NCBI GenBank assembly: GCA_964016885.1
Contig: OZ024741.1
Location: forward strand, 304,544,001 to 304,608,000
Origin: Eledone cirrhosa
Taxonomy: Eukaryota
DNA: 64,000 bases
Reading direction: 5' to 3'
This document shows, in pieces, positions 1-61,730 of the stretch. The notes under the pieces were generated by a model that ran no database searches, was not told the origin of the DNA, and saw only the letters and a list, made by a program, of their open reading frames with translations. Positions within the stretch are counted from its first letter, which is position 1. Each line of letters starts with the position of its first letter. A program made the translations under genes and the position numbers.

Positions 1-1949
1 TTCCTCACACCAACCTCATTTACAGTGAGTGCTGGGTGCTTTTTTTCTGTGGCACCTCCACGACCATTGCAGTGGAATGATAAGGACTGGGGTCCCTATC
101 ATCTCATTTCTACAGCTGAGTAAACTGGAGCAATGTGAAAGAAAGTGTCTTGCTCAAAGAAACAACACATCACCCGGTCCGAGAATTGAACTCACAACCT
201 TTCGATTGCAAGGCCAATGCTCTAACCACTAAACCATGTGCCTCCATGATGATGATGATATATATATATATATATATCATCATCATCATTTTATGTCCGC
301 TTTTCCCTGCTAAAGAAGAACCAAGGCCGTGCCTAAGAGCATTGGATTTGGTATACTTCATATTTGTTTCTGTTGCTGAATACAATCAAGGGTCACTGCT
401 TCTCCTGAAGGTCAATAGTTCTCTTCTAACTCGAGTGGGAGCGCCTTTCCATTGTCAATTTGCATTGATCATCTGCAAAGCCGCATTATTCTCAGAACCA
501 CCACACCAGTCTTTCAATGCGTGCAGCTGGAACTACTGCCAACCATTGATTTGGCAGAGTCACAACTCATTTCTACAGCTGAGTAAACTGGAGCAACGTG
601 AAATAAAGTGTCTTGCTCAAGGACACAACACATCACCCGGTCCGAGAATCGAACTCACAACCTTTCGATTGGAAGCCCAATGCTCTAACCACTAAGCCAT
701 GTGCCTATATATATATATATATATATACACAAAAGCACCCTAGTAGAATGCTTCTGGCCTGGTCATTTTTTTTCAATTTTAAGTAATTCCAGCATGTGTT
801 CCCTGTAAATTGGTCAGGCCTGGCACAGAACTTTCCAGTCGAGGGAGGCGAACTCCTACTGACAACGTGGTTGCTGGCAAATTATGTAATGTATACTAAC
901 ATCTAATTTCTGCACAGTGGTTCCACTTGGACCATCGCCAGCAGATCGGAATTGTAGAAACTGGTGCATTGGTCCAGGTAACTTAAATTTACTACCGACA
1001 TGAAATCATCTTCCTCACTGATTAATGTTTAAGTGTACACTCTAATCGGTTGGGTTTGAATTTTAATAATTCAGACTTAATTAAATTATTGAGAAAGCGA
1101 GGAAAGAACCAAAGATGTGTCCATTCTATTCAATAAGCTTCGTTCCATAATATATATATTTCCTAGTCAGACTATACCTGTTTTACTGTTTTTTAATTTA
1201 TCCCTAATTCATCTTCAGGTGTCCTATCTTGATAACCACTTTAATTACCTTTGGTTAGCCTACACTATTTAATTGGTCAAGGAGCCACCTAAGAGCTAAA
1301 TTCCAGCCAAGCATGTTAGCCCAGAGACCTTGATCGGTTTCACGGATATTATATACAGGCTGAGGAGAGCAATTTTACCGCCTAACCCCCTCCTGGACAC
1401 TCGATATACACATCGTAAGATTTTACTCTGGCATCCAGCTCATCGAGTGCTTGAATCTCCAGTCAGTGGGGATCGAACATCTGGATCTGATACGCAGAAC
1501 CTGATCTGACGGAAGACTGGAGAGCGATATGGCTATCATGCTTCCAGTTAAACTATAACCATAGGCTCTGGTTTATAGATTAGACCTATAGAGATCTATC
1601 TCCTTACTCCTTACTCTTTCATCTTTTTCATTATTATAATAATTATTTCATTATAATCATCTCTTTCCCACATACTCTTCCTTTTGATATAACCTTTCCT
1701 TTTACTTTTTATTTTTTATTTTTAGTTAATTTTTAATTCTTTAATTTTTTATTTATTGAAAAATATATTTTAAGTAGTTACTTGATTTCGGTTAAAATAT
1801 TCAAGGGTGCTGCAGGCTTGTGGACAAGTGGAGCTGGGAGAGAATAACTGTTTGCTACTGCTATGGCTTAAGCCTCGCAGTCACCCCGACTGTAACTTAG
1901 GACACACAATTTCATATCAAAAACCTTGCAAAACAAATATATATATTCC

Positions 1950-6981: not shown

Positions 6982-6993
6982 CAAGATGGCCGC
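6982..6993 (+). promoter_or_regulatory. YY1-like motif overlapping the BBS5 start codon
   Basis: CAAGATGGCCGC resembles the YY1 motif AAGATGGCGGC. Confidence 0.4.
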
Positions 6994-7041
6994 TGATAAC
7001 GTTTGGGAGGATGTTGACATTAAATTTGATATCTCACCAAC
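6986..7041 (+). CDS. BBS5: BBS5 coding exon 1
   Basis: ATG at 6986 (context caagATGG), [18 protein letters not shown](T), donor GTACGT at 7042, phase 2. Confidence 0.92.
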
Positions 7042-10000
7042 GTACGTATACCTTCCTTACAGATGATATATATGTCATAAAAGTTCACATACACACATAT
7101 ATATGTGTGTGTATGTTAAGTATTTCTGTAGAAAAGGTAAAGGAAAGAAGAGTGCTCTATGTATAGTACAGAGCTATTTAATTACATAAACTATTTCATC
7201 TGATTGACGTGTCTGTAAAGACCGTCTAGTTTCCTGAAGCCTTTGGTAACGGAATAATTATATTGTGTTGTTTATTATGTAATTATATGTGTGTATATAT
7301 ATATATATATAGTATAGTATATATAAATAAATAATATATATATATATAAATAGTTTATATATAAATAGTGTATATATATATAGATGTGTGTGTGTTTATA
7401 CATACATATATACACGCGCACATATATATATATATATATACATACTGAACCGTACGCGCACATATACAGACGCTATACAGACACATGGGTGTATGTGAAT
7501 AAACGAATATATTAAAAAAAACAATCCAAGGAAACTGCTGGTGAATTATTATTATGTTTTGTATATAACGTACTTTGTGTGTCTGTACATTCGGCTGTTA
7601 CACTGTTAAGTTTTATTAAACAATTATGTAAAAAGAATAAGACAGCAAATATATACAGTTCTAAAAAAAAAGGAAAAATATATATAATTGTTTCTACTTT
7701 TGGCACAAGGCCAGCAAATTATCCAGTGTATTACTGATACTTTATTTTATCGACCCCGTAAGGATGAAAGGCAAAGTTAACCTCGGCGGGATTTGAACTC
7801 AGAATGGCAAGGGCCGTAACTCTATGCGTCAAAGCATGGCGTCCGACAATAAGGAAGAAGAAGGCCCGTATACTCAATTACACACCACAGCAAGTGGTAC
7901 TGGAGCTTCCCTCTAATAATATTTGAAGCAAGCCAAAGCACACGCAGCATTGCCGCGAGTAACAGCGCGACTAAGTCGCTGGTTAGACCAATATCCCCGT
8001 GGGCATCATCTGATACAAAGGCAAGGCCATAGCCGCCAATTATAACAAGAACCTCGTCATCTGTGGTCGAGTTTCCCCAAACGCCTCGAACGTTACAGCC
8101 ATGGTAAAAATAGTTAGTCGATCATTTTATAAACAAATTTATTTATGATAAAAACTGTATAAACATATTATTTACAGTAACAATAATAATAATTATTATC
8201 ATTTCTACTTTTGGCACAAGGCCAGCAATTATTCCACTGCATTACGGGTACTTTATTTTATCGACCCTGTAAGGATGAAAGGCAAAGTTAACCTCGGCGG
8301 GATTTGAACTCAGATCGTAAAGGGCCGTAACTCAATGCTGCAAAGCATGGCGTCCGACCCTCTACCGATACTGACGGCAATAATAGAAGGGGTGAGCAAA
8401 AGGAAAGAAAGTATAGGGAAATATAGAGAAAGAAAGAAAGAAAGAAGAAAAAGAACGGGAAGGGAGGGGATGGCAAGAGCTCTGGTGCCGTAGAAGAGAG
8501 GGGAGGGTGATTGGACTTTTCTTGCTGCGCCCGATGGACAAGGCAGCAAAAGCATTCCTGCGGACGATGGCCAGTGACACCCGCTGCAACAGCCACCCAA
8601 CCCCGCGGCGCTCCCTCTTCAGACGGCTGCCGACGCTCCGATCTTAGCAGTACGGGGTCCAAGTACGCCTGAGGTCTCGACGGCGGCCGGACAAACCCTG
8701 GTATTTGTTTATTTTACGTTCTTCTGAGGCGGGCTACGATGCCGGGGTTTGTGGCCGAAGCGACTAAGTTGGAGGCGGAGAACTGAAGCACTCTTATATG
8801 TTTTGTATGTAAGGTACTTTGTTAGAAAGCGCCCCCCCACCCACCCCTCACGCACAAGACAGGGCAAGATGCGTTTGTGTTAGACCAGCAGTTGCCCATC
8901 CATGCCAGTTTCCCATCTCCACGCCATCGATGTTGTCCAAGGGAAAAGCAATGGCTGATACTTGACACCAGTGACGTCACAACTCATTTCTACAGCTGAA
9001 TGAACTGGAGCAACGAGTTTCGTGGTTAGAGCGTTGAGCTCACAATCGTAAGGTTGTGAGTTCGACTTTCATATGAGTATATTTGGTATATATATATAAA
9101 CAAAATTTGTTTTTGCTCTTAACATGGTGGATGCCTAAGTGTATTCGTGAGTGATTAATATAATAATATCATAGTATTATCAAAATTCGGTTTGTTTGAA
9201 AACAAACAGCCTCATAAACACCATGTCTGTTTTTTAGATGAACAACTTCAACCTTTTGCTCCAGTGGTAGCTGAGTGAAAACAATTGACAATTGTTTCGG
9301 AGTGTTTGCTCCTTATCAAAATTTGTTTTCACTCTTAACATGGTGGATACCTAAATATATTTGTGAGTGAATAATAATAATATAATAAGATCATATTTTT
9401 AATATTCGGTTTGTTTAGAAGCAAACATCCTCATAAATATTAATAATATTACGATATTATTATAATATTATTCACTCACGAATACATTTAGGTATCCACC
9501 AGGTTAAGAACGAAAACAGATTTGTTTTTTTAACTTTTGGCAAAGCCGGCCATAATATCGCTTGGTATGCAAATGAGTTTTGGAGTGTTTACTCCTTATC
9601 AAGATTGTGTATTCTCGTGACTGCCACTCACGAACACACACACACGCACATATATATATATATATGCCAAACCACTTCACTACTGGATGGACGTGCATGG
9701 CCACCAGCATATCACAATGATTGCGTAGCTGCACTAATGATTACATAAGCATCTGACGAAGTCACCTGAATGCCCATGTAACAAAAATATATATAATGCA
9801 ATAAACAATTAGGGTAATTTAATCCCATCTTAACTACCATTATTTGATAATTGAATACTCTGTCACTCATTATCACCTACCTGGTGATAATGAGTTACTA
9901 CATAACAACTAAGATAAACAACACTCTTGTACATCATCATCATCATCATCATTTTACGTCCGCAAGGGTGCAGTGAAATTCCGTTATAACGAAATTCACA

Positions 10001-13000
10001 GGATATAAAAAAAAATTTGTTGTAACGAAAAATTCTTTATGACAAGATCGACCGAAACAAATCGTTATACTGAAACATTTGTTACATGCATATATGTATA
10101 TACTGTATAGGCTTGTGTAAAAGTTGAACTTTTTAGACCATTACATGGGGTCGACTATTACATGGATACTACTTTTGAGGGGTTAGAATCCAAAGTATCG
10201 TATCAATAGCAGAAGCCCAGCTGATCTCTAAACGAATAAAAACAAAAGCAAAATGAATTACAGTAATATTATCAGTGCCAGATTTACAATAAATAACATT
10301 ACAAACATGTTTTAAATCTATACATAAATAACATTATAATCATTCAGAAGAACATGCATAAAAGAGAGAACAAAAAAGGTGGGGAACAAAGACAAAAACT
10401 ACCATCAATTCACCACCAAATACGACAATCAGCTGCACATCACACCTTAGGGGTTAATAAACACTTTGAGGCAAGCCATTATGCTTGCGGCATTGCCACG
10501 AGTGATGGCGAGGCTAATGCACTGAAACAACCAGGCACCCTCATGGGCATCACCTGACACCTCAGTAAGGTGAACCGCCAGTGATGACAAGAACTTCGCT
10601 GTCAGTGGCCCAACTCCACCAAACGTCTCAAACTCCACAGGCTGGAAAAAATAATTGAAAATAACCTAAAATCCTTCCATTAGTATGCTGATATTTAGAA
10701 AATTACTTAATAGAAATTTCTTAAATGAAATTATGATGGAAGGATTTGATATAGATCTGGGACAGCATCAGGTGGTTTGATATGAAAAGGGTTTAGAATA
10801 TCCCTGATATAGTTTGCTACTTGCTGCCTATTTTTCATAAATATTGACCAAAATATTCTTTACTTTTCTTGTTACAGACAGATGCAACCACGAACTGGTG
10901 AGAAAATTGTTGACATTGTCGATAGTGTGGAAGACACAAAAGGAAATAATGGAGAGAGAGGTAGAGTGAGTTTCATAAAGAATAATTTAATAAAGACTGG
11001 GATATATTCTGGAAATGATTTTATATCTTTATATGTAAATATATATGTGTGTGTGCACCCATGTTAGCATGGAAGATGGACGTTAAACGATGATGATATG
11101 TGTTTGTGTGTATGTATGCATATAAACCAGCTAAAGGGTTTAGCATCAGGAATGCTTCTGCATGTAAAACACTGCCTCAAAAGGTCCCGTACAATATATA
11201 TTGTAGGTGTCATGATAAAACGCACCCAGTACACACTGAAAATGTGGTTGGCATTAGGAAGAGCATCCAACTGTAGAAACCAAGCCAAAATCAGTTCTGT
11301 ATAATAATAATTGTTTCTACTTTAGGCACAAGGCCAGCAATTACCCAGTGCATTACTGGTACTTTATTTTATCGACCCCGTAAGGATGAAAGGCAAAGTC
11401 AACCTCGGCGGGATTTGAACTCAGATCGTAAAGGGACGTAACTATGCTGGAAAGCATGGCGTCCGACCCTCTACCAATACTGCCAATCCACCGCCCTTCT
11501 GTATAATAATAATGCTTTCTTTATTAACCACAAGGGTTTACACAAAGTAGAGATTAAGGACAGTACAGGACGGTACAAATGTGCATTTCTGCGTGTAAAA
11601 AACCCCAAAAAAACAGGATGTAATAAAAGAACAATGAAATATTCCCCAATAGGGGGGAGACTTCCGAAGGCCATCATGGAGAAAGCCCATTAAAAATAGC
11701 CACGGTGACCCTGACCTCCAGGGCAAGTGTCCTCCCAGTTTTCCACCTTCAATTTACAGGCATATACACAGAGTAGGTCCATTCACTCGGGCCATTCTTG
11801 CCTCTCTCACCCATCTTTCAACAAAATGCTGGGAAGAGAGCAGCTCCCTCTCTACCTTGATTTTCCTTTTCAAATGAAATTTGAAAAAGTTAATCAGGGC
11901 ATCACCGAAGAGATAAGTGTTCGTCTTCAGCCCTTTCAGACGCGTCGACCATACTATCTCTTTTGCCATGGCCACCAGACAGATAAAAACTGCCTGCCCT
12001 TCCTGGCTAAAGGAAGAGGGCGGGGTAATCCTCACAAATAGTCGGATCCGTTCTACACGCGACAGCAGGTGTTCGACATAAACCCACAAGTCAGCAATGC
12101 TTGGACACTGGACGAGTGCATGCAGGACGGTTTCGTTGCCCTGCGTGCATCTCGGATATGCCCGGCTGACGGCACCTCCATGCCTGTAGAGTTTATCCCG
12201 TACTGGCAAAGCTCCTCGGTAGCACTGCCAGGCCAGAGATTTCTGGAAGTTGTCCATAGGCACCGGCCCAAAAGTTCTTCCGAAGAGATTGGCTAGTTGA
12301 TTTTCGTCGACGCCTAGAGTTTCCCCAAGTACGTCGTCGCTCTTCCCCTCCACTAATCCTCTATAGAACGCCAAGGTAGAGTTTCCACCGATCACATTGC
12401 CCGATTGGTCGAGGGCTGTGAGCGCCTGAAGACATTCCAGTCTCCAAGCGCTCCCTCTCGGTCTTCGCTTGACCCAGGACTGCAGCTCCGTCAAGGAAAT
12501 GAGCTGGGGAAAGACGCGGCTAGCAAACAGCGACCACACCTGATCACCGTCGAGGAAGAGGTGGAGATGTAGCCTGAGCGCGTGTCTGCGCATCATCAGC
12601 CACGGCATGCCCAGCCCTCCACGTAGCGGGTGTTGACAGCAGATGGACTGCCTGACCATCGGAGCACGTCGCTTCCACAAAAAGCGAAAGAGCAAATGCT
12701 CCAGCGCAGTCAGGCGAGGCTTAGGACAAGGCACAACGGTCAGGCGGTAGTAAATGATGGACGCGATGTACGTATTAGCCACCTCCACTTGACCTTTCAG
12801 GGATAGCTTTCTCTCCGCCCATTTCTGGGGGAGAGAAGCCACTCTGCTCATCACCTCGTCCCAGTTTTTGTCCGTCTGGAGGTCTGGACTGAACCAGACC
12901 CCTAGCAATTTAACCGGTCCGTCCGTCCAGCGCCCAATGAAGCCGTTGGACGGCATGGACCTGTCTCTCCAGGTGCCGAGCTGCAGGCCCACCGACTTTT

Positions 13001-16000
13001 CCTGGTTGATCATTGCTCCTGTCACCACTTCGTATTCTCTTAGTGTAGTGCCGATCGCCTCGATGTGTTTGGCGTTTGACACCACTATGGTTACATCGTC
13101 CGCATATGCTGACACGGATCTTCCGCATCCTAGTTCGCGCGGGACCTCCCTCAACGTCTCCAGTTTGTGCAGTAATGGCTCGAGAGTCAATACGTACAAG
13201 AGGGACGACAGGGGACATCCTTGGCGGACCAAGCGCATGATGTTGAACGGTTCTGAAAGGTGACCGTTCACTCTCACCACAGAGCAGATGTCGCTGTGCA
13301 TGGCAGCGATCCAGCCTCTGAAGACGGGCCCAAAGCCAGCCGCCCTCAGGACTGCCGCTAGGTAAAGATGGTCGACCCTATCGAAAGCTTTCGACTGATC
13401 TAAATTGATCAAGGACCCACCCGTGCCAGGTTCCCTAGCTATCGGCTCCACGATGTATCGCATGAGGTGGAGGTTGTCGTGGATGGATCTGTCGGGAATG
13501 GCGCATGACTGCACTTTTCCTACCAGACCACCAACGACAAGCGCCAACTTCTTTGCTAGCACCTTGGCCAAAATCTTGAACTCTATGTTTAGCAGAGTTA
13601 TGGGCCTGAAATTATCTATGTTATCCCCCTTGTTCGGATCCTTTTTCAGCAGCGCCACCGCTCCTCGGCTCACATTCTGTTGCCAGTTGTAGTAGACGTC
13701 CGCCAAGAGGCCTCCGAACAAGTCTGGCATCTGTACGTAAAGTTCATAGGGCAGACCATCCAAACCAGGCGATTTACCCCTTGTGCAGCCAGTCATTGCC
13801 TCCCGTACTTCAGCTGCTGTTATCGGCTTTTCGCAACACTCCGCCTCAGTGGCCGAGAGCCGCAGCAGTCCGTCGAGGTAGACACTAAAGTCCATCCGGC
13901 CCACCGCTGCCCCCGAACAGCTGAGCGAAGTGTTGCTGAAAAGCTTCACACATTTGCCCGGGATCGAGTAGCATGAGCCTGTCGTGGTCCACCAAAGACT
14001 GGATCGTGGCTTTGTTGCCACGTCGCGCCTCCGCCAGTCGGGCCCATTGAACAGCTTTTGTCCCCTCGTGTCTGAGAGCACGCACCCTAGCTCTGACAAC
14101 ACAGCCTTCATGCTTTTCATTGAAGAATTGGTCAAGGGCCAATTTCGCTGCAAGTACGTCGGTCACGATGCCTTTGCTAAGCGCCTCGTCTAATTTTCTA
14201 ACTAGTTCTCCCTCTGCTTTATTTTTTTCTATTGCTAAAGCCATACTAAACCTAATGGACTCTGTTCTAATCACTCTTTTCAGAGCAAACCACCGATTGT
14301 TGTTGACGATGCCCCCCGTCAATGCCCGCTTAACTAGTTCGCTAATCCGCGCTGGTAATGACGCGTTTAGCTTCCAGTAGCCGGGTCCTTGTCTATGAAG
14401 CCTATCTAAGTCAACCACACAGATCAGGAATTTGTGGTCCGTGTAGCTGACTATCTTGAATTGTGGACAGCCTATGCTAGACCTATCTATTTCCCTACAA
14501 AATACTCTATCTAGATATGATCTGGATGACCCGATGCGGTTTGTCCAAGTCCACATTGGCACATTCGGGAAATCCAATCGGTACCTGTCAGACAGTTCAA
14601 AACGCCTGAGCAGCTTGGTGAGGTTCCTGCACCCTCCTCCCCTATTCGCTAATCCCACACAGTCCCAGCATGCATCTAAGATCCTGTTCCAGTCGCCCAC
14701 TAACACTAAAGAGCGGGAAGTTCCAAGAAAGGTCTCCAGACGCCGGAAGAAATTAGGCCGCCCTGCTCCTGTCGGGGCATAGACGGCCACTAGCCTGAAA
14801 GCTTGCCCGTCTCCGCTGGTCACGTCCAGCACCACCAACTTACGTTCTGGGTCCAGGAAGATGGCCCATATGGCAAGATCCAAACCTCTCCGAAAAAGCA
14901 CAGCAACTCCTCCCCCCGATCCAGGACGGATGGGAGATGCGCACACATCGTAGCTGCCGAAGATCGGTGCGAAGGCCCGTGTCTCGGAGATTCTGGTCTC
15001 GCTGATGGCCACCACATCTATGTTTAGCAACCTGTGATCGTTCAGCAGGTGCCCCTGCTTCCAAGACGACCCCAGACCACATACATTTATGCTACCTATT
15101 CTGAGAGTAGCCATGTTGGCTAGGGTATGAGGAAAATAGGTGAGAGGGGAGCAGTACAAAAAAATTACCTGGGACTCTTCTTTAGGAAGGGGGTGGGTGA
15201 TCCATCCCTCCGACCATTGGTGAGTTTCTCCACGAGAATATCCGTGAATATTCTTTTGGTGATGTTCCCTCGGTAGTCTCCAATTGATGTGGGGAACATT
15301 TTTTTTAATGTTATGTAATTTTTTTGAGTAATTTCTATTATTTTTATGTGTGTGTGTGGGGGGGGGGTACAATTTTGGTGGTTTGTACGTAGTTTGTTTC
15401 TGTGATGTTGGTGTGGTGTTGAATGTAATTTAAAAGCTTTGTTATGTCTGTGTCTATGGCTGTTTATTGTGTCTGTTGTTTGGGTGTTGGTGTTTTCTGT
15501 GTTTGCTGTCATGTTGTTGGAGGTGACGATGGAGTAGATGGTAAGGGTGGTGGTGGTGGTGGTGGTGGTGGTGGTGGTGATGGTGTAGGTGGTTGTGGGG
15601 GTGTGGCTGTTGATGGTGGTGGAGGAGGTGGGGTAGTTTTCATTTTCTTTTTTTTTAAGGTTCCTAATTTTTTTTTTTTTGGGGGGGGGGGGGTGTTCTT
15701 CCTTTTTTTGTGTTGGAATAGTTCTCCACTTTTTGGCCTCATCGCACTCCTTGTCCGATTTGGCTATGTCAGGAAGGGTTATGCTTTCCATTGGTTTTGT
15801 GGGTGGTGGAAGAGATGGTATTTTTGTTGTTGGGGATGGTGATTTCTCTTCTGCCACTGTGTTCTTTGTTTCTTTGTCTGCTCTAGTTGCGGGGCACGGC
15901 GTGGCGAGAAGGGGTGAGTGCGTGCCTGTTTTGGTAATTTTGGGGCAGAATGCCTTAAGGTGCGTCTTGTCACCGCATCCATGACACCTTGGGCGCCTAC

Positions 16001-19000
16001 CATCGACAGTCACGGGTAGATGGCTGCCGTCGTCCAGGTCTATTACATCGGGGATGGCCTCAACGCTTTCGTGGTCTGCTTGGATGATTAGCTCCATCCC
16101 CGATCCTGTCCAATTTTCCTGTCTTATTCGTATGACGTTGAGTATGGTTGTTGAATCTACAACGTCAGCAAGGATGGCTGCCGTCAACCACGCCATCTCC
16201 ACTGAGGGTGGTACCTGGCCCACTCAAACCCTCACGACTCTTTGGCCGCAATATGTGGGCATCATTGTGATTTCGTTGCTGTGGAGTGGTGCAATGGAGT
16301 GTGCTCTGGCTTCTTCCGGTGTAACGAAGAGCACACCCACAGTGCCATATCTCTATCCCCGGGCTATATATGATTTTCTGTGCCCAGACGGCACCCATAG
16401 CTCTTTGGATCTGTGACTCCGTTGCTGCCCGTTCAACTTGCCTGGATTTTGATCCGATCGTGTGATAACTGACCGAACACAAAAGTTTGTTTCTTATTAT
16501 CTCAGCTGGGCGGGTGAGACTTACTCTGTGTCCGTTTTTTTTTACCAAGACCTTTGCTTGTTTTATCTCTTCGTTAGTAATGTTTATTTGCTCAAACTTG
16601 TTGGTCGCTTTCACGAAAGATGTGTTTGTTTTGATTTGTGATAAAATTATTGTGTAAAGTGCTCAGGTGCACTACAACTCGTCAAAGGTGCATGTATAGT
16701 ACATAACATCATCTGACCTGGCTTGTCTCAACAAGACAACTCGTCTAACCCATGCTAGCATGGAAATATGGGCAATAAACAGTGATGATAATGATGATGA
16801 TGATATATATTTGAAAACAGAGTCTCACGTAGATAAAATCATATAAAATGAAAAAATAATATGGGCGGAGATAACAGAAAAATGAACAAACACAGACAAT
16901 CCCCTCTCATCAATCACTAGAGATACATTGTTTCAATGCTTTAAGATTGATACAACTGGCCAAATTGTCTTGTCTTATGTTCATTTGTTATTGTTCTTTG
17001 TGCAATGGAGCTAGTTATATCAATCTTAAAGCACTGAAACAATGTATCCCCAGTGATCGACTGATGAGAGGACACTGTCTATGTTTCGTTTATTTTTCTG
17101 TTGTCTTCGCCCATACGGTTCTTATATATTTGATATATATTTATCATCCTTATCGAGCCCTCTTTGGATTTTAGTCTTCAAATTTATTATTATTACTATA
17201 TATATATATAAGTACCACCAAACTCTGGGAGGGCTCTGTAGAAACAGTAGACAGCTTCTGCTACCTTAGGTGACCGAATTAGCAGCGGAGGTGGGTGTTC
17301 GGAAAGTACAATAACTAGGGTAAGAACGGGATGGAAGAAGTTCAGGGAGCTACTGCCACTGCTAGCTACAAAAGGTTTTTCCCTCAAAATGAAAGGCAGA
17401 CTGTATGATGCATGTATACGAACAGCAATGTTACATGGTAGTGAGACCTGGGCGCTGAAGGTGGGAGACTTGTGTAGATTAGAAAGAAACAAAGCCTGCA
17501 TGCTCCAATGGATGTGTAATAGAAATATATGCGAACGGCAAAGCATAAATGAATTGAGAGAGAGACTGAGCATAAGAGGAATCAAATGCTGTGTGCAGGA
17601 GAGGCAGTTGCATTGGTATTGACATGTGATGCGAATGAAGGATGACAGCTGCATGAAAAGGTGCAGAGCACTAGAAGTCGATGGAAACCACGGAGTGGGG
17701 AGACCCAAGAAGACCTGGGATGAAGTGATAAAAGCCGATCTTACCCAATTACACCTCTCAAAGGCGATGACATGACCGTGACTTCTGGCGTCACACAGTA
17801 ATACAGAAGACTTGACCTCCCACGGGTACAAGCCAATGCTGAAGCATATAGACAATATGACCCCACACCCTCCCACTGCAAAGTGGTCGTGGAGGTGCCA
17901 CGGCAAAAAAGCACCCAGCCCACACTGTAAAGTGGACATGTAGGTGCCACGGAAAAAAAGCACCCAGCACTCACTGTAAATGAGGTTAGTGTTAGGAAGG
18001 GCATCCAGCTGTAGAAATCAAGCCAGAATCAGTTCCCGTATGAGCAAGACAAGGTCAGCCGACCGGACACTGCCCACAACAGGACAACCCGTCTAACCCA
18101 TGCTAGCGTGGAAGAGGAGACATAAAACAGTGATGATAAGCAAGCATTGTACCAAGAAGAATATAAATATCAGCAAGAAAGGGGATTAGGAATTTATTTG
18201 CTTTAGCATATGTATCTATGTCTATTATAATTGTCTACACATGCTGACTACAATATATATTGTTCAATTATATGCAATACTTAATTATTTATCACACTTC
18301 ATCGGAAAGTCTATAATTGTGGAAGTGACTATTCATAACGCAGTAGAATTCAGGAATGGGATTTTCGTTTAAGAAAATATAAATAAGTCAAAATGACAAT
18401 AAAAATAGAATAAGATACAGTAAGTTAGTGTGACAGTAGAGAGAGTTAAGAGGAGGGGGGGGGGTGGGGGGTTAAAGAGTTTCACATTATCAATCTGTGT
18501 GCTGTGATGTGGAACAATTATTCTTTGACCATTGGTATGGGTGAAGGTTTTGAGTGATTTGAAAATGTGGAAATCCTAAATGCAGAAAATAACTAACAGC
18601 AGTCAATCACTATAAACAATAGCTTAGAAAATTGGGTAAAATACCACTGGAGACAGAAAAAGGTGTATGATACCTGAGAAGTCTCGAAAAAAAAAAGTGA
18701 ATATGCTCCAATGGATGTGTATTGTTATTATGCATGGATGATGTAACTTAAATGAGCTGAGAGAAAACTTGCTATAAGAGGATTGCATTGGTATGCTCAT
18801 GTGATGCTTAAGGAAGGTGACAACTGTATAAAGAAGTGCAGAGAAATCTCAGTAGATGGAACTTCTGGAAGTGACAGACCCAGGAAAACATGAGATGAGG
18901 TGATGAAGGCTAACCTTAAGAAGCTGTACCCCACAACAGAGTTGACAAATGATCTTGAGGACTGGCAATATGCTGTTCTGCTGAAGACCCGTCTACCAGC

Positions 19001-22000
19001 CTAAGACTTGATCTGACTTGACCAATCCACGTATCACTCCTCTAACCCATTATCACCCTTTAGTAGCCAGCCTCACTATCACTACACACCCACACCCTCA
19101 TGCAACCACTGCCCTTCATGCACCCTCACCCTCATACCTATAGTGGCTATTTTCAACATCACTGTACACCTCCACCCTACTCATTCCAGGATCACTTCTA
19201 CCCCTGTTAATTCCCAACACCCATACTCTATCCAGCGTCATCATTCATTCATCTTCCCACTCAACTCACCAATCATAGCCTCTGGTAGCTGTTATACCAT
19301 AGTACCTTCCACATAGTCAGAGGTTTCCCATCCCATCCACCACCACACCCTGTCAAATCTTCCCCACACTCCTCTGTAGGGCAGTGAGGGTTCTTCAGTT
19401 GAGTCAAGAATAACAACTTCTCTAGTGACAGTGCCATGATAAATGTACCCAGTACACCTAGTAAGGTGGTTGGTAATTGGAGAAGCAACCAGCTGTAGGA
19501 ACCATGTCAAAAAGGATCAAGAGGACTCTTTTTTGTGTGCCAGAAGCACAATAACCTCTCTAGTATTGGTCATCTACATGATAAACACCCAGTATACTCT
19601 GTAAAGTAGTTTGTGAGAGGAAGGACATCCAACTGTAGAAAACTTGCCAAAGGAAAGGTTGTGAAGACTTTGCAGCTATGCCAAACACATGACAACTTCA
19701 TTAATGTGGGTGTCACGATAAAATGCACTCAATAGAGTATGGAACTGTATATATGTGTGTGTATTTTTATATATATTTACATACATACCATCAGTGGTAT
19801 GTTCATATATATATATATATATGGGTTGGACTGAACTTCTTGAAATACTATATTGCAGGCAGATGCCCTTCATGACTACATGCTAGAATTATACATATAT
19901 ATATATATATATGTGAGTGTGTATCCTGGGTTCAGTTGAGGGTAACCACAGTATATACATCATCATCATCATCGTTTAATGTCCATGTTCCACACTTGCA
20001 TGGGTTTGGACGGTAGTTTTCCCACTTGAGGCAAAATTGGTTGTCCTCCTCGCATAGGACTGTCTGGCGGGTTTTCTACGGCTGGATGCCCTTCCTAACA
20101 CCAACCACGTTTACAGTGGGGCTGGGAGGTTTTTACCGTGTTACCTACACGGCCACATTACAGCGTGGACTGTGTGTTTTTTGTTGTGACACCTACACGA
20201 CCTCATTTGTTTCGGACTGGATGTTGTGGTACCAACATAACTTTACATCGAAAGGAGTGGTGTGGATGGGGTGGGGGGGGTGTATTTTTGTTAAGAGGTG
20301 CCTACTGACTAGGTTTTGCTTTGTACTTAGGCTAGGCGGGTCTTCTGTATTACTGTGTAGCGCCAAAGATCTCGGTCCAGTGACATTGTCTTGGAGAGGT
20401 GTAAATGTGTGAGGTCGGAATTTATCAAGTCGTCCCAGGTTTTTCTGGGTCTGCCTACTCCGTGGCTACCGTCTATTTTTATCGCCCTGCACTTTTTTAT
20501 ACAGCTGTCGTCTTTCATGCGCATCACGTGACCGCACCAATGTAGTCTTCTCTAGAGTAAACAACATCTGATCCCTCTTAGTTCGTTTATGCTTTGCCAT
20601 TCACGTATATTACTATTACACATCCAGCGGAGCATGCAAGCTTCATTTCTCTCCAGTCTGCGTATATCCTCTGCACACAATGCCCAGGTCTCACTGCCAT
20701 GCAACATTGCTGTTCGTATGCCGGCATCATACAGCCTGCCCTTCATTTTTAGAGAGAACCCTTTAGCGGCTAATAGTGGTATAAGCTCTCTGAACTTTTT
20801 ACATCCAGTTCTGACTCTAGCTACTGTACTTTCAGAGTACTCTCCCCCACTGCTGATTTTGTCACCCAGGTAACGGAAGCTGTCCACTTTTTCTATAGAA
20901 CCATCTGTGCAATGGAATGAGCTAATATTCTGTGGGCACTTGCTGCTACTTATTGCACCAGAGCACCGGCCACACATATAAAATCTATATTCTTAGTTAT
21001 ATATATATAAGGTGTGAATATACATATATATATATGTATAAATATACATATATATATATATATAAGGTGTGAAACTAATGTGAAGATTTTGTGTAATTAT
21101 ATCTCTGTCTATTTTAACCTTGAATTATATATATATATGTGTGTCTGTTAAAGTATGATAATGATATATAACATTATCAGTGCCTGTGTGTATGTATCCT
21201 GTTCTGGTTTATAAACCCCTGCTAGTAGGGAAAGCAGAAGTTACGATGATAATGATGATATTCATTGCTCTATTTTTTTTTTTTTTTTACTGTGCTACCT
21301 TTCTGATATATTCTTTTTCCCTTTTCAAATAAATAGATAAAATCTACTAGCTATATTAAGTACCTTTTCTCTTGTTTGTATACTCAAATGCATAAATGCC
21401 TATACATATATAATAAATAACAAAGAACGCTTATAGCATATGCATATCTTTACTTGCTAACATTGTTTCATCCGCACTATAAGTGGGACTCATCAGAGCA
21501 TAAAGGTTAATTACATACAAATGCCTATACATATATATATGTGTGCGTGAGGGTTGGCTGAAAAGTTCATACTGTCATGGAGTGACCAAACGAAGTATAC
21601 TTTTCAACATAGTCCATGGAAAGAAACAATGCACTTATTAATAAAGATAGTTGAAATTAATGCATGCAAGATTTCACAGCTCTAGCATCACTCCAGCTGA
21701 CCGTCAGATATTGACTAGAATAATAAGACTCAGTTTTTTACTTCTTTTTAATTAGCATTAATCCTCTCAAGGACTATTTCTCTGGGATATTTTATGTGCT
21801 GATTGTAAAATATCTGGACGTGTTTCAAAAAAACACTCCAAACCTGGAAGAGCAATTTAGATTTAAAACATCTAATTTAAACACAAATTACTAATTAGTA
21901 AGAGGAAGAACAAAAAATCACAGTGCTCAATATTTAGAAAAGAAAGCAGGTAGAAAATCAATACTCTGTAAACAAACAATGAATAGGCAAATAGATGTAG

Positions 22001-59359: not shown

Positions 59360-60160
59360 TTCATCATTATCATCATCAACATCATTTTTACATTCACTTT
59401 TCCATGTGTGCATGGATTAGATGATCCTTCTTCAATATATCTTTCCTCCACTTTTCACAAATTTTTGTCATCTCTTCTGTGATGTTCAGGATTCTGAGAT
59501 CAGTTCTCACCAATTCGGCCTCTTCTTTCCACTTGGGACTCCTGTTACTTCTTCCTCCAATGATTATCATCCATATGCATCATGTCTCTATACCAGAGCA
59601 ATTTTCTCTCTTGCACACCACCTACAATTCCTCTAAAACATAGTTTTTCTCTGTGTTTCATCATTCATGCACCCTAATATTACACATCCAGTTGAGCATG
59701 CTAGCCCCATTTCTTCTTAACCTTCACACATGCTTTGCATTTAATGCCTATGTCTCACTACCACACACCATCACACTTCAAACACAGGCTTTATATAACC
59801 TACCTTTTTTTTGGGAGAGAGGATTTCTTTGTTGGCAACAAAACCTTTTCTACCCCATTCTTATTCTGTTTTTGTAGCACCCTATTTCACTGCTAATTAG
59901 CTTACCCAGGTAACAGAAGCTATCAACTACTTCTGTGAATTATTTTTGGGATGGGAAAGAGTTTATTTCACTGATGCTCTTACTACTAATTACCCCTGTT
60001 CATCTACCATACATAAAATCTCTTTTGTCTGTTATCCTGCCTGTGATGTGACCACATCTCTGGTACACCAAAAGCTTATACTGGATGCACTGTATGGAAT
60101 TTTTACTGGTTTTCAGCAAATTGAGTATTGCCATTTCCTAGATGGTAGCAAGATTCTGTT
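59360..60160 (-). mobile_element. Degraded RTE-type LINE fragment
   Basis: Reverse complement resembles the ORF2 C-terminus (VVDSFCYLG; gtgagacat...); (CAT)n-like tail at ~59360. Confidence 0.7.
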
Positions 60161-60161
60161 T

Positions 60162-60980
60162 GTTTCCTACTTACTAGGACTATCATCTTTGCTATCAATT
60201 GTTTCCTACTTACTAGGACTATCATCTTTGCTATCAATTGTTTCCTACTTACTAGGACTATCATCTTTGCTATCAATTGTTTCCTACTTACTAGGACTAT
60301 CATCTTTGCTATCAATTGTTTCCTACTTACTAGGACTATCATCTTTGCTATCAATTGTTTCCTACTTACTAGGACTATCATCTTTGCTATCAATTGTTTC
60401 CTACTTACTAGGACTATCATCTTTGCTATCAATTGTTTCCTACTTACTAGGACTATCATCTTTGCTATCAATTGTTTCCTACTTACTAGGACTATCATCT
60501 TTGCTATCAATTGTTTCCTACTTACTAGGACTATCATCTTTGCTATCAATTGTTTCCTACTTACTAGGACTATCATCTTTGCTATCAATTGTTTCCTACT
60601 TACTAGGACTATCATATTTGCTATCAATTGTTTCCTACTTACTAGGACTATCATCTTTGCTATCAATTGTTTCCTACTTACTAGGACTATCATCTTTGCT
60701 ATCAATTGTTTCCTACTTACTAGGACTATCATCTTTGCTATCAATTGTTTCCTACTTACTAGGACTATCATCTTTGCTATCAATTGTTTCCTACTTACTA
60801 GGACTATCATCTTTGCTATCAATTGTTTCCTACTTACTAGGACTATCATCTTTGCTATCAATTGTTTCCTACTTACTAGGACTATCATCTTTGCTATCAA
60901 TTGTTTCCTACTTACTAGGACTATCATCTTTGCTATCAATTGTTTCCTACTTACTAGGACTATCATCTTTGCTATCAATT
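60162..60980. repeat. 39-bp minisatellite, 21 copies
   Basis: Unit GTTTCCTACTTACTAGGACTATCATCTTTGCTATCAATT, head to tail, with a single substitution near 60616. Confidence 0.97.
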
Positions 60981-61730
60981 GTTTATCTTATATATGTGGC
61001 TGGATCAGGAGGGTGGATTAACAGAACCATTAGTATGTTGGAAAAAAATTCTTTGCAGTATTTAGTTCCAGCTCTTTACGTTCTTAGTTCAAATCCTGCC
61101 AAGGACAACTTTGCCTTTCGTCCTCCTGGGGTTGATTAAATAAAATACGAATCAAGTACTTGGGTTGATATAATAGACTTTTTCTCCCACAAAAAGTGTT
61201 GGCTTTGTGTGAAAATCAGAAATCTTATACATGGCTGAGTCATGCAAAGGATATTTGATTGGAAAGGTGTAAGTAGGAAGGCTCCTTCTAGGTTAATTCA
61301 CCTCCTACAACAAACTTTCTAATTAAGATCCAACACAAGAGTCTTTTTGTGGTCATTTAGCATTCTAGAAATAGCAGCCAAATATCCTTAAAATTATTCT
61401 TATCTATCTTAAGAACACATTGAATAATATAGTTTTAAATATCAAAAAAACATGGTATGGCTAAGGCTGGAATATCTTTCATCATATATCTGTTTAGGAC
61501 TACTCTGAGGCTAAACAACAACAAAAACAAACTTCCAATCGATTTTGAAATAAGAACCAAACTTTTACCCTTTTGACACAAAAATACTAGACCGGACTGT
61601 AAATTTGGCTGGGGTTTTTTACAGCTGGATGCCCTTCATAACACCAACCACATTTAAAGAGTGTATGTATGTATATATATATAAATATATAGGGAGAAGT
61701 ATTAATGGAAAATCAATCCTCTTTCTTCAA

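What the first reader, a model, noticed from the sequence alone, without database searches (positions are those of the whole stretch)
9095..9625. Retrozyme or Penelope pLTR architecture: ~216-bp partial tandem plus inverted copy around the ribozyme
Seen: a unit repeats at ~9101 and ~9317, an inverted partial copy follows (~9460-9525), and the hammerhead sits at the unit junction. Established: Penelope-like elements carry minimal hammerheads in partially tandem or inverted pseudo-LTRs, and metazoan retrozymes are short hammerhead-bearing tandem units that yield small circular RNAs. Inference: this may be a cephalopod retrozyme or non-autonomous Penelope family producing ~216-nt linear or circular RNAs.
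Basis: partly seen in the sequence, partly recalled or inferred. Interest (0 to 1): 0.75.

Follow-up and report, generated by a model that had tools for sequence, protein, structure and literature searches.

The report
Scrambled copy of octopus-type retrozyme
This is a worn, rearranged copy of a small protein-free jumping repeat, found at many places in this animal genome, that carries a predicted self-cutting RNA and was likely pasted in by Penelope-type enzymes; its real unit is about 355 bases, not 216, and it is a new example of a known kind.

Summary
The repeats are real, and a minimal type I hammerhead with a U3:A8 core lies on the minus strand (9334-9273). The 216-bp period is not the unit. 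Copies elsewhere repeat every ~340-370 nt. Here ~140 nt are missing between two look-alike sites, and that junction has one exact match in the genome. The family is dispersed (180 distinct loci fetched) and old (~81% pairwise identity), and no locus held more than two same-strand hammerheads. It shows Penelope-type footprints: two fixed 3' ends ~37 nt apart, mostly against TA/CA microsatellites; 5' truncation; more-than-unit copies; and mirror insertions that pair a long with a short end (25 of 30), as this locus does. No Penelope ORF carrying this unit as its terminal repeat was found, although other Penelope families here share the anatomy. Verdict: a likely dead copy, antisense in BBS5 intron 1, of a non-autonomous Penelope-mobilised retrozyme; new member of a known kind. 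Cleavage, expression and circles are untested. This scan already reported similar U3:A8 retrozymes on other DNA.

The parts
9087..9097 (.). TA microsatellite at the left end of the insertion (target site)
   Evidence: sequence; 20 of 25 long ends in the family abut a microsatellite
9098..9316 (-). Last unit: hammerhead core to the long ('tail') 3' end; about positions 16-240 of the ~355-nt unit
   Evidence: 85% to natural unit L003; shared 3' end in the alignment of 27 copies
9273..9334 (-). Minimal type I hammerhead: stem I 5' arm 9334-9320 (borrowed from the tail of the preceding unit), core UUGAUAA 9319-9313 (U3:A8), 4-bp stem II 9312-9299, GAAA 9298-9295, palindromic CAAUUG loop III 9294-9289, GUC triplet, predicted cut 9287/9286, stem I 3' arm 9286-9273
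   Evidence: motif scan, coordinates and folding, shuffles; one of 8 of 96 family copies that pass a strict pattern; cleavage not tested
9313..9325 (-). Junction that makes the 216-bp period: tail end fused to the hammerhead core between two look-alike sites, ~140 nt of linker and native stem I arm absent
   Evidence: the two sites lie 138-142 nt apart in L009, L016 and L017; a 22-nt junction pattern matches once in the genome, here
9317..9437 (-). Preceding partial unit (positions ~115-237)
9436..9577 (+). Inverted segment (positions ~140-293): passes the tail site and runs ~55 nt into the native linker; forms an 88-bp hairpin with 9319-9406
   Evidence: its right junction is spanned without mismatch by a 141-nt contig of run X1 (possibly the assembly's own sample)
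9577..9631 (-). Second, broken hammerhead half: native stem I arm, U3:A8 core and stem II, with G12 changed to A and nothing after it
   Evidence: (D5)
9625..9639 (+). About 13-nt outward-pointing short 3' end (positions ~188-199), joined to the previous piece by a 7-nt overlap
   Evidence: (D14, I11); same end as in L133 and L238; too short to be counted, read by eye
9634..9665 (.). CA/TA microsatellite at the right end of the insertion
   Evidence: sequence
7037..10878 (+). Host context: first coding intron of BBS5 (exons 6986-7036 and 10879-10968); the hammerhead is antisense to the gene
   Evidence: tblastn with P0121/P0122

Best explanation
This is a decayed, rearranged insertion of a dispersed ~355-nt protein-free repeat with a U3:A8 minimal hammerhead motif, likely copied into a TA/CA microsatellite by the enzyme of a Penelope-like element, and its 216-bp period comes from a local loss of ~140 nt rather than from a 216-nt unit. 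SHOWN: unit length, dispersal, age, two fixed 3' ends ~37 nt apart, microsatellite targeting, 5' truncation, copies longer than one unit, mirror insertions with one long and one short end, subfamilies with a compensatory stem I change. INFERRED mechanism: (1) masters with two hammerheads were transcribed; (2) the hammerheads, too weak alone, likely cut as dimers through the palindromic loop III, and the monomer was re-joined to a ~355-nt circle (about 55%; an uncut tandem transcript is the alternative); (3) a Penelope RT/GIY-YIG protein likely cut both strands of a TA tract and started reverse transcription at the two internal sites, one per strand, giving outward-pointing arms; (4) here the left arm started at the long site, ran through more than one unit and switched template twice, and the right arm started at the short site and made ~13 nt; (5) the ~140-nt loss between look-alike sites likely happened at or after insertion. 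This copy is likely inactive: it has one complete hammerhead motif, lies antisense in an intron, and its RNA is predicted to fold into long hairpins.
For: Family size: 1,510 and 1,686 first-look candidates (40 scored each); 142 matches to one 26-mer at <=1 mismatch, 0 in the reversed control; 238 loci merge to 180 distinct. Period 332-373 in 33 of 52 measures. Ends in 83 scored of 84 distinct loci: 25 long, 22 short, 36 other; microsatellite next to 20/25, 15/22 and 5/36, background 290/2496 flank windows (Fisher p=4e-8). Of 100 pattern-anchored copies, 54 run upstream through the whole hammerhead and 19 pass the previous tail site. Mirror loci 66 of 180; of 30 with both ends classed, 25 long+short, 3 short+short, 2 long+long (p=1.6e-4, or 0.008 if three doubtful calls are reversed). 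Hammerhead in 96 copies: U3 90, A8 90, A6 92, A13 92, A14 95, U16.1 91; one stem I pair is A-U 77, G-C 10, G-U 4, A-C 0, other 5. A young autonomous Penelope in the same genome (L081: 937-aa RT+GIY-YIG, pLTRs 97.8% alike) has a U3:A8 hammerhead, two 3' ends and TA targets, and by eye so do further families. In vitro, a Penelope protein cuts both strands of AT-rich DNA and starts RT at two internal sites that bound the 30-40-nt tail (PMC11167929).
Against: No parent or partner element identified: the 3' regions at 40 GIY-YIG loci and 43 loci of a second Penelope family do not resemble the unit beyond weak AT-rich hits and two neighbouring insertions; only 150 of 10,597 GIY-YIG candidates were scored. 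No pile-up of 5' ends at the predicted cut site (4 of 100 in positions 40-49 against 2-7 in the other 10-nt bins from 10 to 119), so the genome holds no record of cleavage. The monomer's lowest-energy fold is not the hammerhead (-22.2 against -12.9 kcal/mol), and the two-copy co-fold did not give the full dimer form either. No array beyond two hammerheads (10 of 180 loci have two). 36 of 83 3' ends are at neither site; many of these abut other repeats, by eye. Covariation counts are inherited from few masters, so they are few events. In PMC11167929 cleavage was not needed for insertion and no strand difference in start site was seen.
Confidence: 0.82

Rival explanations
1. Same family, but the template was an uncut linear tandem transcript. 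Seamless more-than-unit copies come from read-through or template jumps, and circles play no part.
For: PMC11167929: unprocessed RNA is the main substrate in vitro and hammerhead mutants insert normally. No 5' pile-up at the cut site; a loose cluster of 5' ends just after the tail site (6 of 100 at -131 to -122) could be a transcript start. Longest chain seen 662 nt, under two units.
Against: Subfamily changes fall in loop II, N7, N4 and a compensatory stem I pair, which suggests the fold mattered to the masters. No long master array was found. Mussel retrozymes of 350-390 nt give abundant circles (PMC7229834 section 14).
Confidence: 0.35
2. The unit is the pLTR of an autonomous Penelope-like element that is now decayed or was missed; the copies are its 5'-truncated tandem ends.
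For: Anatomy matches the pLTRs of ORF-bearing families here. 12 of 180 loci have Penelope fragments within ~1.5 kb; in L250 the tail is fused directly to a truncated RT.
Against: After the tail the copies go on into a 126-nt linker and the next hammerhead, not into an ORF. The 25 upstream flanks compared shared no alternative sequence, except two inverted arms of the unit itself. The RT family in L250 has a different pLTR and hammerhead, and both elements target TA tracts, which explains the abutting. No blastx hit of the unit below E 0.9 to 140 Penelope-type proteins.
Confidence: 0.1
3. One reading: a retrozyme with a 216-nt unit that yields ~216-nt linear or circular RNA.
For: 216-bp spacing in the window; the hybrid hammerhead has a 14-bp stem I; one other locus has a 215 spacing.
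Against: The junction pattern matches once in 3.0 Gb. The other 215 spacing comes from a different deletion (L146). Only one complete hammerhead lies in the window copy, so no second cut could release a 216-nt monomer.
Confidence: 0.02
4. The hairpin is a microRNA precursor or a MITE-like foldback DNA element, and the hammerhead is chance.
For: Rfam miRNA models score the 88-bp hairpin at E 1e-6 to 1e-5.
Against: Those scores (33-42 bits) are far below gathering (110-144 bits) with large bias terms. Inverted arms vary in length and position between loci. Hammerhead positions are kept across 96 copies; 2 of 2000 shuffles give the pattern.
Confidence: 0.02

Closest known systems
Metazoan non-LTR retrozymes (Cervera and de la Pena 2020, PMC7229834: passages and section 14 read; Li, Clavereau, Pollet 2026, bioRxiv 10.64898/2026.07.22.740005: parts 1-3 of 5 read)
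   Same: Non-coding unit of 150-450 nt, low GC, one type I hammerhead per unit, monomers and dimers dispersed, co-occurs with Penelope-like elements; mussel units are 350-390 nt.
   Different: Core is U3:A8, with a C4 subfamily; no array beyond two hammerheads found; family old; RNA and circles not shown; no parent pLTR found, unlike 24 of 57 Xenopus families that matched known elements.
Minimal hammerheads in Penelope pLTRs, including the U3-A8 variant of Schistosoma mansoni Cercyon (Cervera and de la Pena 2014, PMC4209133: parts 1-2 of 4 read)
   Same: Type I layout, short palindromic helix III predicted to need a dimer, U3-A8 swap, mostly single motifs, some pairs on opposite strands 100-700 bp apart.
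   Different: 4-bp stem II without the extra base after A9; not attached to an ORF; about 28 of 96 copies come from a C4 subfamily (U4C is known from a viroid, PMC3088659, one passage read).
Penelope-like element insertions (Craig et al. 2021, PMC8557442: 11 passages read; Frangieh et al. 2024, PMC11167929: parts 1-2 of 4 read)
   Same: 5' truncation, partial tandems, inverted 5' copy, 30-40-nt tail often at one end only, microsatellite/AT-rich targets, two internal RT start sites.
   Different: No RT/GIY-YIG ORF. The long+short pairing is counted here for a non-coding passenger; the in vitro work saw no strand difference in start site.

Membership tests
Type I minimal hammerhead (PLE type) | Core N3-U-G-A-N-N8-A, GAAA and UH with a 3:8 pair; stems I and II | tested here: met
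   U3 90/96 and A8 90/96 in the family
Type I minimal hammerhead (PLE type) | Short palindromic helix/loop III | tested here: met
   CAAUUG at 9294-9289, each position kept in 85-92 of 96 copies
Type I minimal hammerhead (PLE type) | Self-cleavage (as dimer) | not testable with these tools
   Folding does not favour the active form; no 5'-end pile-up at the cut site
Non-LTR retrozyme | Short non-coding unit (150-450 nt, low GC) with one type I hammerhead | tested here: met
   period 332-373; no blastx hit below E 0.9 to 140 Penelope-type proteins; other coding potential not searched
Non-LTR retrozyme | Head-to-tail tandem, at least two units with hammerheads (family level) | tested here: met
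   10 of 180 loci have two same-strand hammerhead regions, none has more; whether both are intact was not scored
Non-LTR retrozyme | 'Active' by Li et al.: two consecutive units with complete hammerheads (this locus) | tested here: not met
   second half at 9631-9577 lacks G12, stem III and the cut site; the locus is a relic, not an active retrozyme
Non-LTR retrozyme | Expressed as unit-length linear and circular RNA | not testable with these tools
   no RNA holder listed
Penelope-mobilised insertion | Two 3' ends bounding a 30-40-nt tail; AT-rich/microsatellite target | tested here: met
Penelope-mobilised insertion | 5' truncation with partial tandem and inverted copies | tested here: met
   (adjacent inverted piece in 20 of 83)
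pLTR of an autonomous Penelope-like element | Unit flanks an RT + GIY-YIG ORF | tested here: not met
   none among 180 loci nor at 83 Penelope loci; sampling of Penelope families incomplete

The most novel reading that the evidence does not exclude
The family is a fossil record of how a Penelope enzyme pair handles a small passenger RNA circle: it cuts both strands of a TA tract and starts one strand at the short site and the other at the long site, so mirror insertions pair unlike ends (25 of 30). A subfamily with a doubly changed hammerhead core (U3:A8 plus C4) also spread, so this core still worked. A 355-nt passenger with two mapped start sites would be a minimal substrate for testing strand-to-site coupling and the need for circles in vitro.
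Probability: 0.4. Interest if true: 0.5.

Novelty: new member of a known kind. Interest (0 to 1): 0.27.

Why it matters
As it stands it adds an octopod-type family to the known retrozymes and corrects the predicted RNA size from 216 to ~355 nt, which matters for any Northern or RT-PCR test. The counted footprints (two start sites, long+short mirror ends, read-through of the hammerhead) tie a non-coding retrozyme to the two-site priming shown in vitro for a Penelope protein, and so support, by insertion anatomy, the idea that animal retrozymes ride on Penelope enzymes. The family is old, so it is a poorer experimental target than younger U3:A8 families.

Tried and rejected
Rfam: nothing at gathering level in the window; only weak miRNA-hairpin and sRNA scores at 9050-9900. 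The RT and endonuclease frames at 11754-15429 are an APE-type LINE, not a Penelope. Parent search: GIY-YIG search (20 loci returned, 20 stretches fetched), blastn and Smith-Waterman against their 3' regions, blastx of all 180 loci: no parent. The Penelope RT abutting the unit in L030, L250 and L017 was followed up; the L250 family has its own pLTR, and adjacency fits shared TA targets, so no partner is named. Cleavage fossil test: a first hint (L172 starts at the cut site) did not hold in 100 anchored copies; several automatic 5' calls there are wrong where inversions or deletions intervene. The 316-nt U3:A8 satellite at G000:C2 ~207.7 Mb has no blastn match to this unit in the stretches shown. 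Sequencing runs: no RNA holder listed; two contig runs of one sample match 9115-9295 and 9476-9616 exactly; a 56-nt contig spans the 216 junction by only 27 and 29 nt, short of the tool's 31-nt rule. The ESM Atlas query of the BBS5 frame gave nothing useful. Lunse et al. (PMC5785218) was not held; I saw only its citation and the summary in PMC6765202 (passages), and it may already list these core variants. Print searches for this family showed no description of it, but one search was too loose to count, no supplements were read, and Repbase/Dfam are not available; supplements of PMC4209133 and PMC7229834 may list cephalopod hammerheads.

Full report
Observation. The window holds a direct repeat (9101-9218 and 9317-9437, 83% alike, 216-219 apart) and an inverted copy with 88-nt arms. 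Rfam finds nothing at gathering level. A motif scan that allows swaps of the 3:8 core pair finds a type I hammerhead on the minus strand: stem I 9334-9320 with 9286-9273, core UUGAUAA (U3:A8), 4-bp stem II, GAAA, palindromic loop CAAUUG, GUC, predicted cut 9287/9286. The pattern occurs in 2 of 2000 shuffles. The insertion lies in the first coding intron of BBS5, hammerhead antisense; the exon's only two hits are octopod proteins.

The family. The genome search gave 1,510 candidates, of which 40 were scored; one 26-mer has 142 matches at one mismatch. I fetched 238 loci, 180 distinct. The best non-self matches were 86-92%, and 21 long copies average 81% pairwise, so the family is old. In ribozyme sense, copies run hammerhead, ~190 nt, 3' end; upstream of the hammerhead lies a 126-nt linker that itself follows the previous 3' end. 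The period is 332-373 nt in 33 of 52 spacing measures; the other 19 are scattered, and many of those loci hold insertions, deletions or inversions by eye.

Why 216 here. The end of the tail and the 5' arm of the hammerhead resemble each other and lie 138-142 nt apart in three natural copies. In the window they are fused, so the tail supplies a hybrid stem I. A 22-nt pattern of this junction matches once in the genome. The inverted piece 9436-9577 still carries the first ~55 nt of the missing linker. That fits a fold-back copy made before the loss (inference). L146 has a 215 spacing from a different deletion.

Anatomy of this insertion, left to right: TA tract; long 3' end at 9098; unit positions 240 back to 16 (minus); positions 237 back to 115 (minus); positions 140-293 (plus); positions 38 back to ~345 (minus, broken second hammerhead half); about 13 nt of the short 3' end (plus, 9625-9639, read by eye); CA/TA tract. 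Both ends point outward, one long and one short.

Penelope footprints. Among 83 scored of 84 distinct loci, 25 end at the long site and 22 at a short site ~37 nt earlier. 35 of these 47 abut a microsatellite, against 5 of 36 other ends and 290 of 2496 flank windows. This set was partly chosen with long queries, so its 32 of 83 more-than-unit copies are inflated. Among 100 copies anchored on one pattern (60 of 62 new listed places fetched; 42 further matches were not listed), 54 read upstream through the whole hammerhead and 19 pass the previous tail site. Of 180 loci, 66 are outward-pointing mirrors; 30 have both ends at a fixed site, and 25 of those pair long with short (p=1.6e-4; 22 of 30, p=0.008, if three calls doubtful by eye are reversed). 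I ran this count after reading note e1-8834929. Craig et al. already state that the tail is often at one end only (PMC8557442, passages). Frangieh et al. show that a Penelope protein cuts both strands of AT-rich DNA and starts RT at two internal sites that bound the tail, and that uncut RNA is its main substrate in vitro (PMC11167929, parts 1-2).

The ribozyme. In 96 hammerhead regions U3 and A8 are each kept 90 times; most losses elsewhere sit at CpG sites; 8 pass a strict pattern, this one among them. Subfamily changes fall in loop II, N7 and N4, and one stem I pair changes A-U to G-C (77 A-U, 10 G-C, 4 G-U, 0 A-C, 5 other). C4-derived cores go with one loop II class (23 of 39) and are rare in the others (1 of 17, which is the window's class, and 3 of 35), so C4 is a subfamily trait. 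These are few independent events. U3-A8 is described for Schistosoma Cercyon elements (PMC4209133), and U4C for a viroid (PMC3088659). Against activity: the monomer prefers another fold by 9 kcal/mol, the pair co-fold is not the full dimer form, and 5' ends do not pile up at the cut site.

Penelope link. GIY-YIG has 10,597 candidates here. L081 is a young element with a 937-aa RT+GIY-YIG frame between pLTRs 97.8% alike, each with a U3:A8 hammerhead ~175 nt before a TA tract. By eye, three more families have U3:A8-type motifs, and three of the families shown have two 3' ends ~40 nt apart. None resembles this unit beyond weak AT-rich hits. 12 of 180 loci have Penelope fragments nearby; by position and strand none has the unit as the repeat behind an EN stop. 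The family fused to the tail in L250 has its own pLTR. So Penelope mobilisation is inferred from footprints, and the partner is unknown.

Mechanism. Most likely a ~355-nt RNA, cut by dimeric hammerheads and re-joined (about 55%) or left uncut (about 35%), was copied by a Penelope protein from two internal sites onto both strands of a cut TA tract. Steps shown and inferred are marked in the best explanation. This copy is likely dead. The BBS5 pre-mRNA would carry an 88-bp hairpin but not the ribozyme strand (inference; no RNA data).

Comparison and verdict. It works like an animal non-LTR retrozyme and meets the sequence criteria at family level, though without long arrays and without RNA evidence. 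It fails the test for the pLTR of an autonomous element, on incomplete sampling. Notes of this scan describe similar U3:A8 retrozymes in this and other genomes; they are unchecked AI notes and are not counted as support. New member of a known kind; interest 0.27.

Noticed in passing
window 6986-44228 (+): BBS5 gene, at least 11 coding exon matches, spans most of the window.
   Followed up: partly
window 11754-16223 (-): Frame-broken LINE with APE endonuclease, RT and zf-RVT domains in BBS5 intron 2.
   Followed up: partly
window 21496 (-) and 47540 (-): Two more type I hammerhead motifs with the usual C3:G8 core and short loop III; the motif at 21496 recurs letter for letter in L089.
   Followed up: no
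L081 (G000:C1:145869500-145877500): Young Penelope-like element, 937-aa RT+GIY-YIG frame between two pLTRs 97.8% alike with U3:A8 hammerheads; copies 97% alike in protein.
   Followed up: partly
L071/L094/L069, ~200 nt before their 3' ends: Penelope family whose U3:A8 hammerhead-like motif has GCAA in place of GAAA in all three copies seen, by eye.
   Followed up: no
L297:674-950: Diverged sister of this unit (nhmmer E 1.4e-15) with a CUGAUGA core by eye, fused to a 5'-truncated Penelope; L286 and L287 show other hammerhead repeats at such 5' junctions.
   Followed up: partly
L326-L329 (G000:C2 ~207.70-207.73 Mb): Satellite of 316-nt units with a U3:A8 hammerhead, a different family, over 30 kb in the stretches fetched.
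   Followed up: partly
L133, L138, L139, L170, L150: Copies with 7- or 14-nt duplications in loop III that lengthen helix III and might allow cleavage as a monomer.
   Followed up: no
many loci, unit position ~155: The AT-rich middle of the unit is often interrupted at about the same place by other common repeats.
   Followed up: no
window 9666-9900: Another repeated sequence right of the insertion (high contig depth) with a CUGACGA word at 9753 and a 16-bp hairpin at 9862-9898; no full hammerhead found.
   Followed up: partly
window 60160-60984: Very young 39-bp minisatellite, 21 copies, 99% alike.
   Followed up: no
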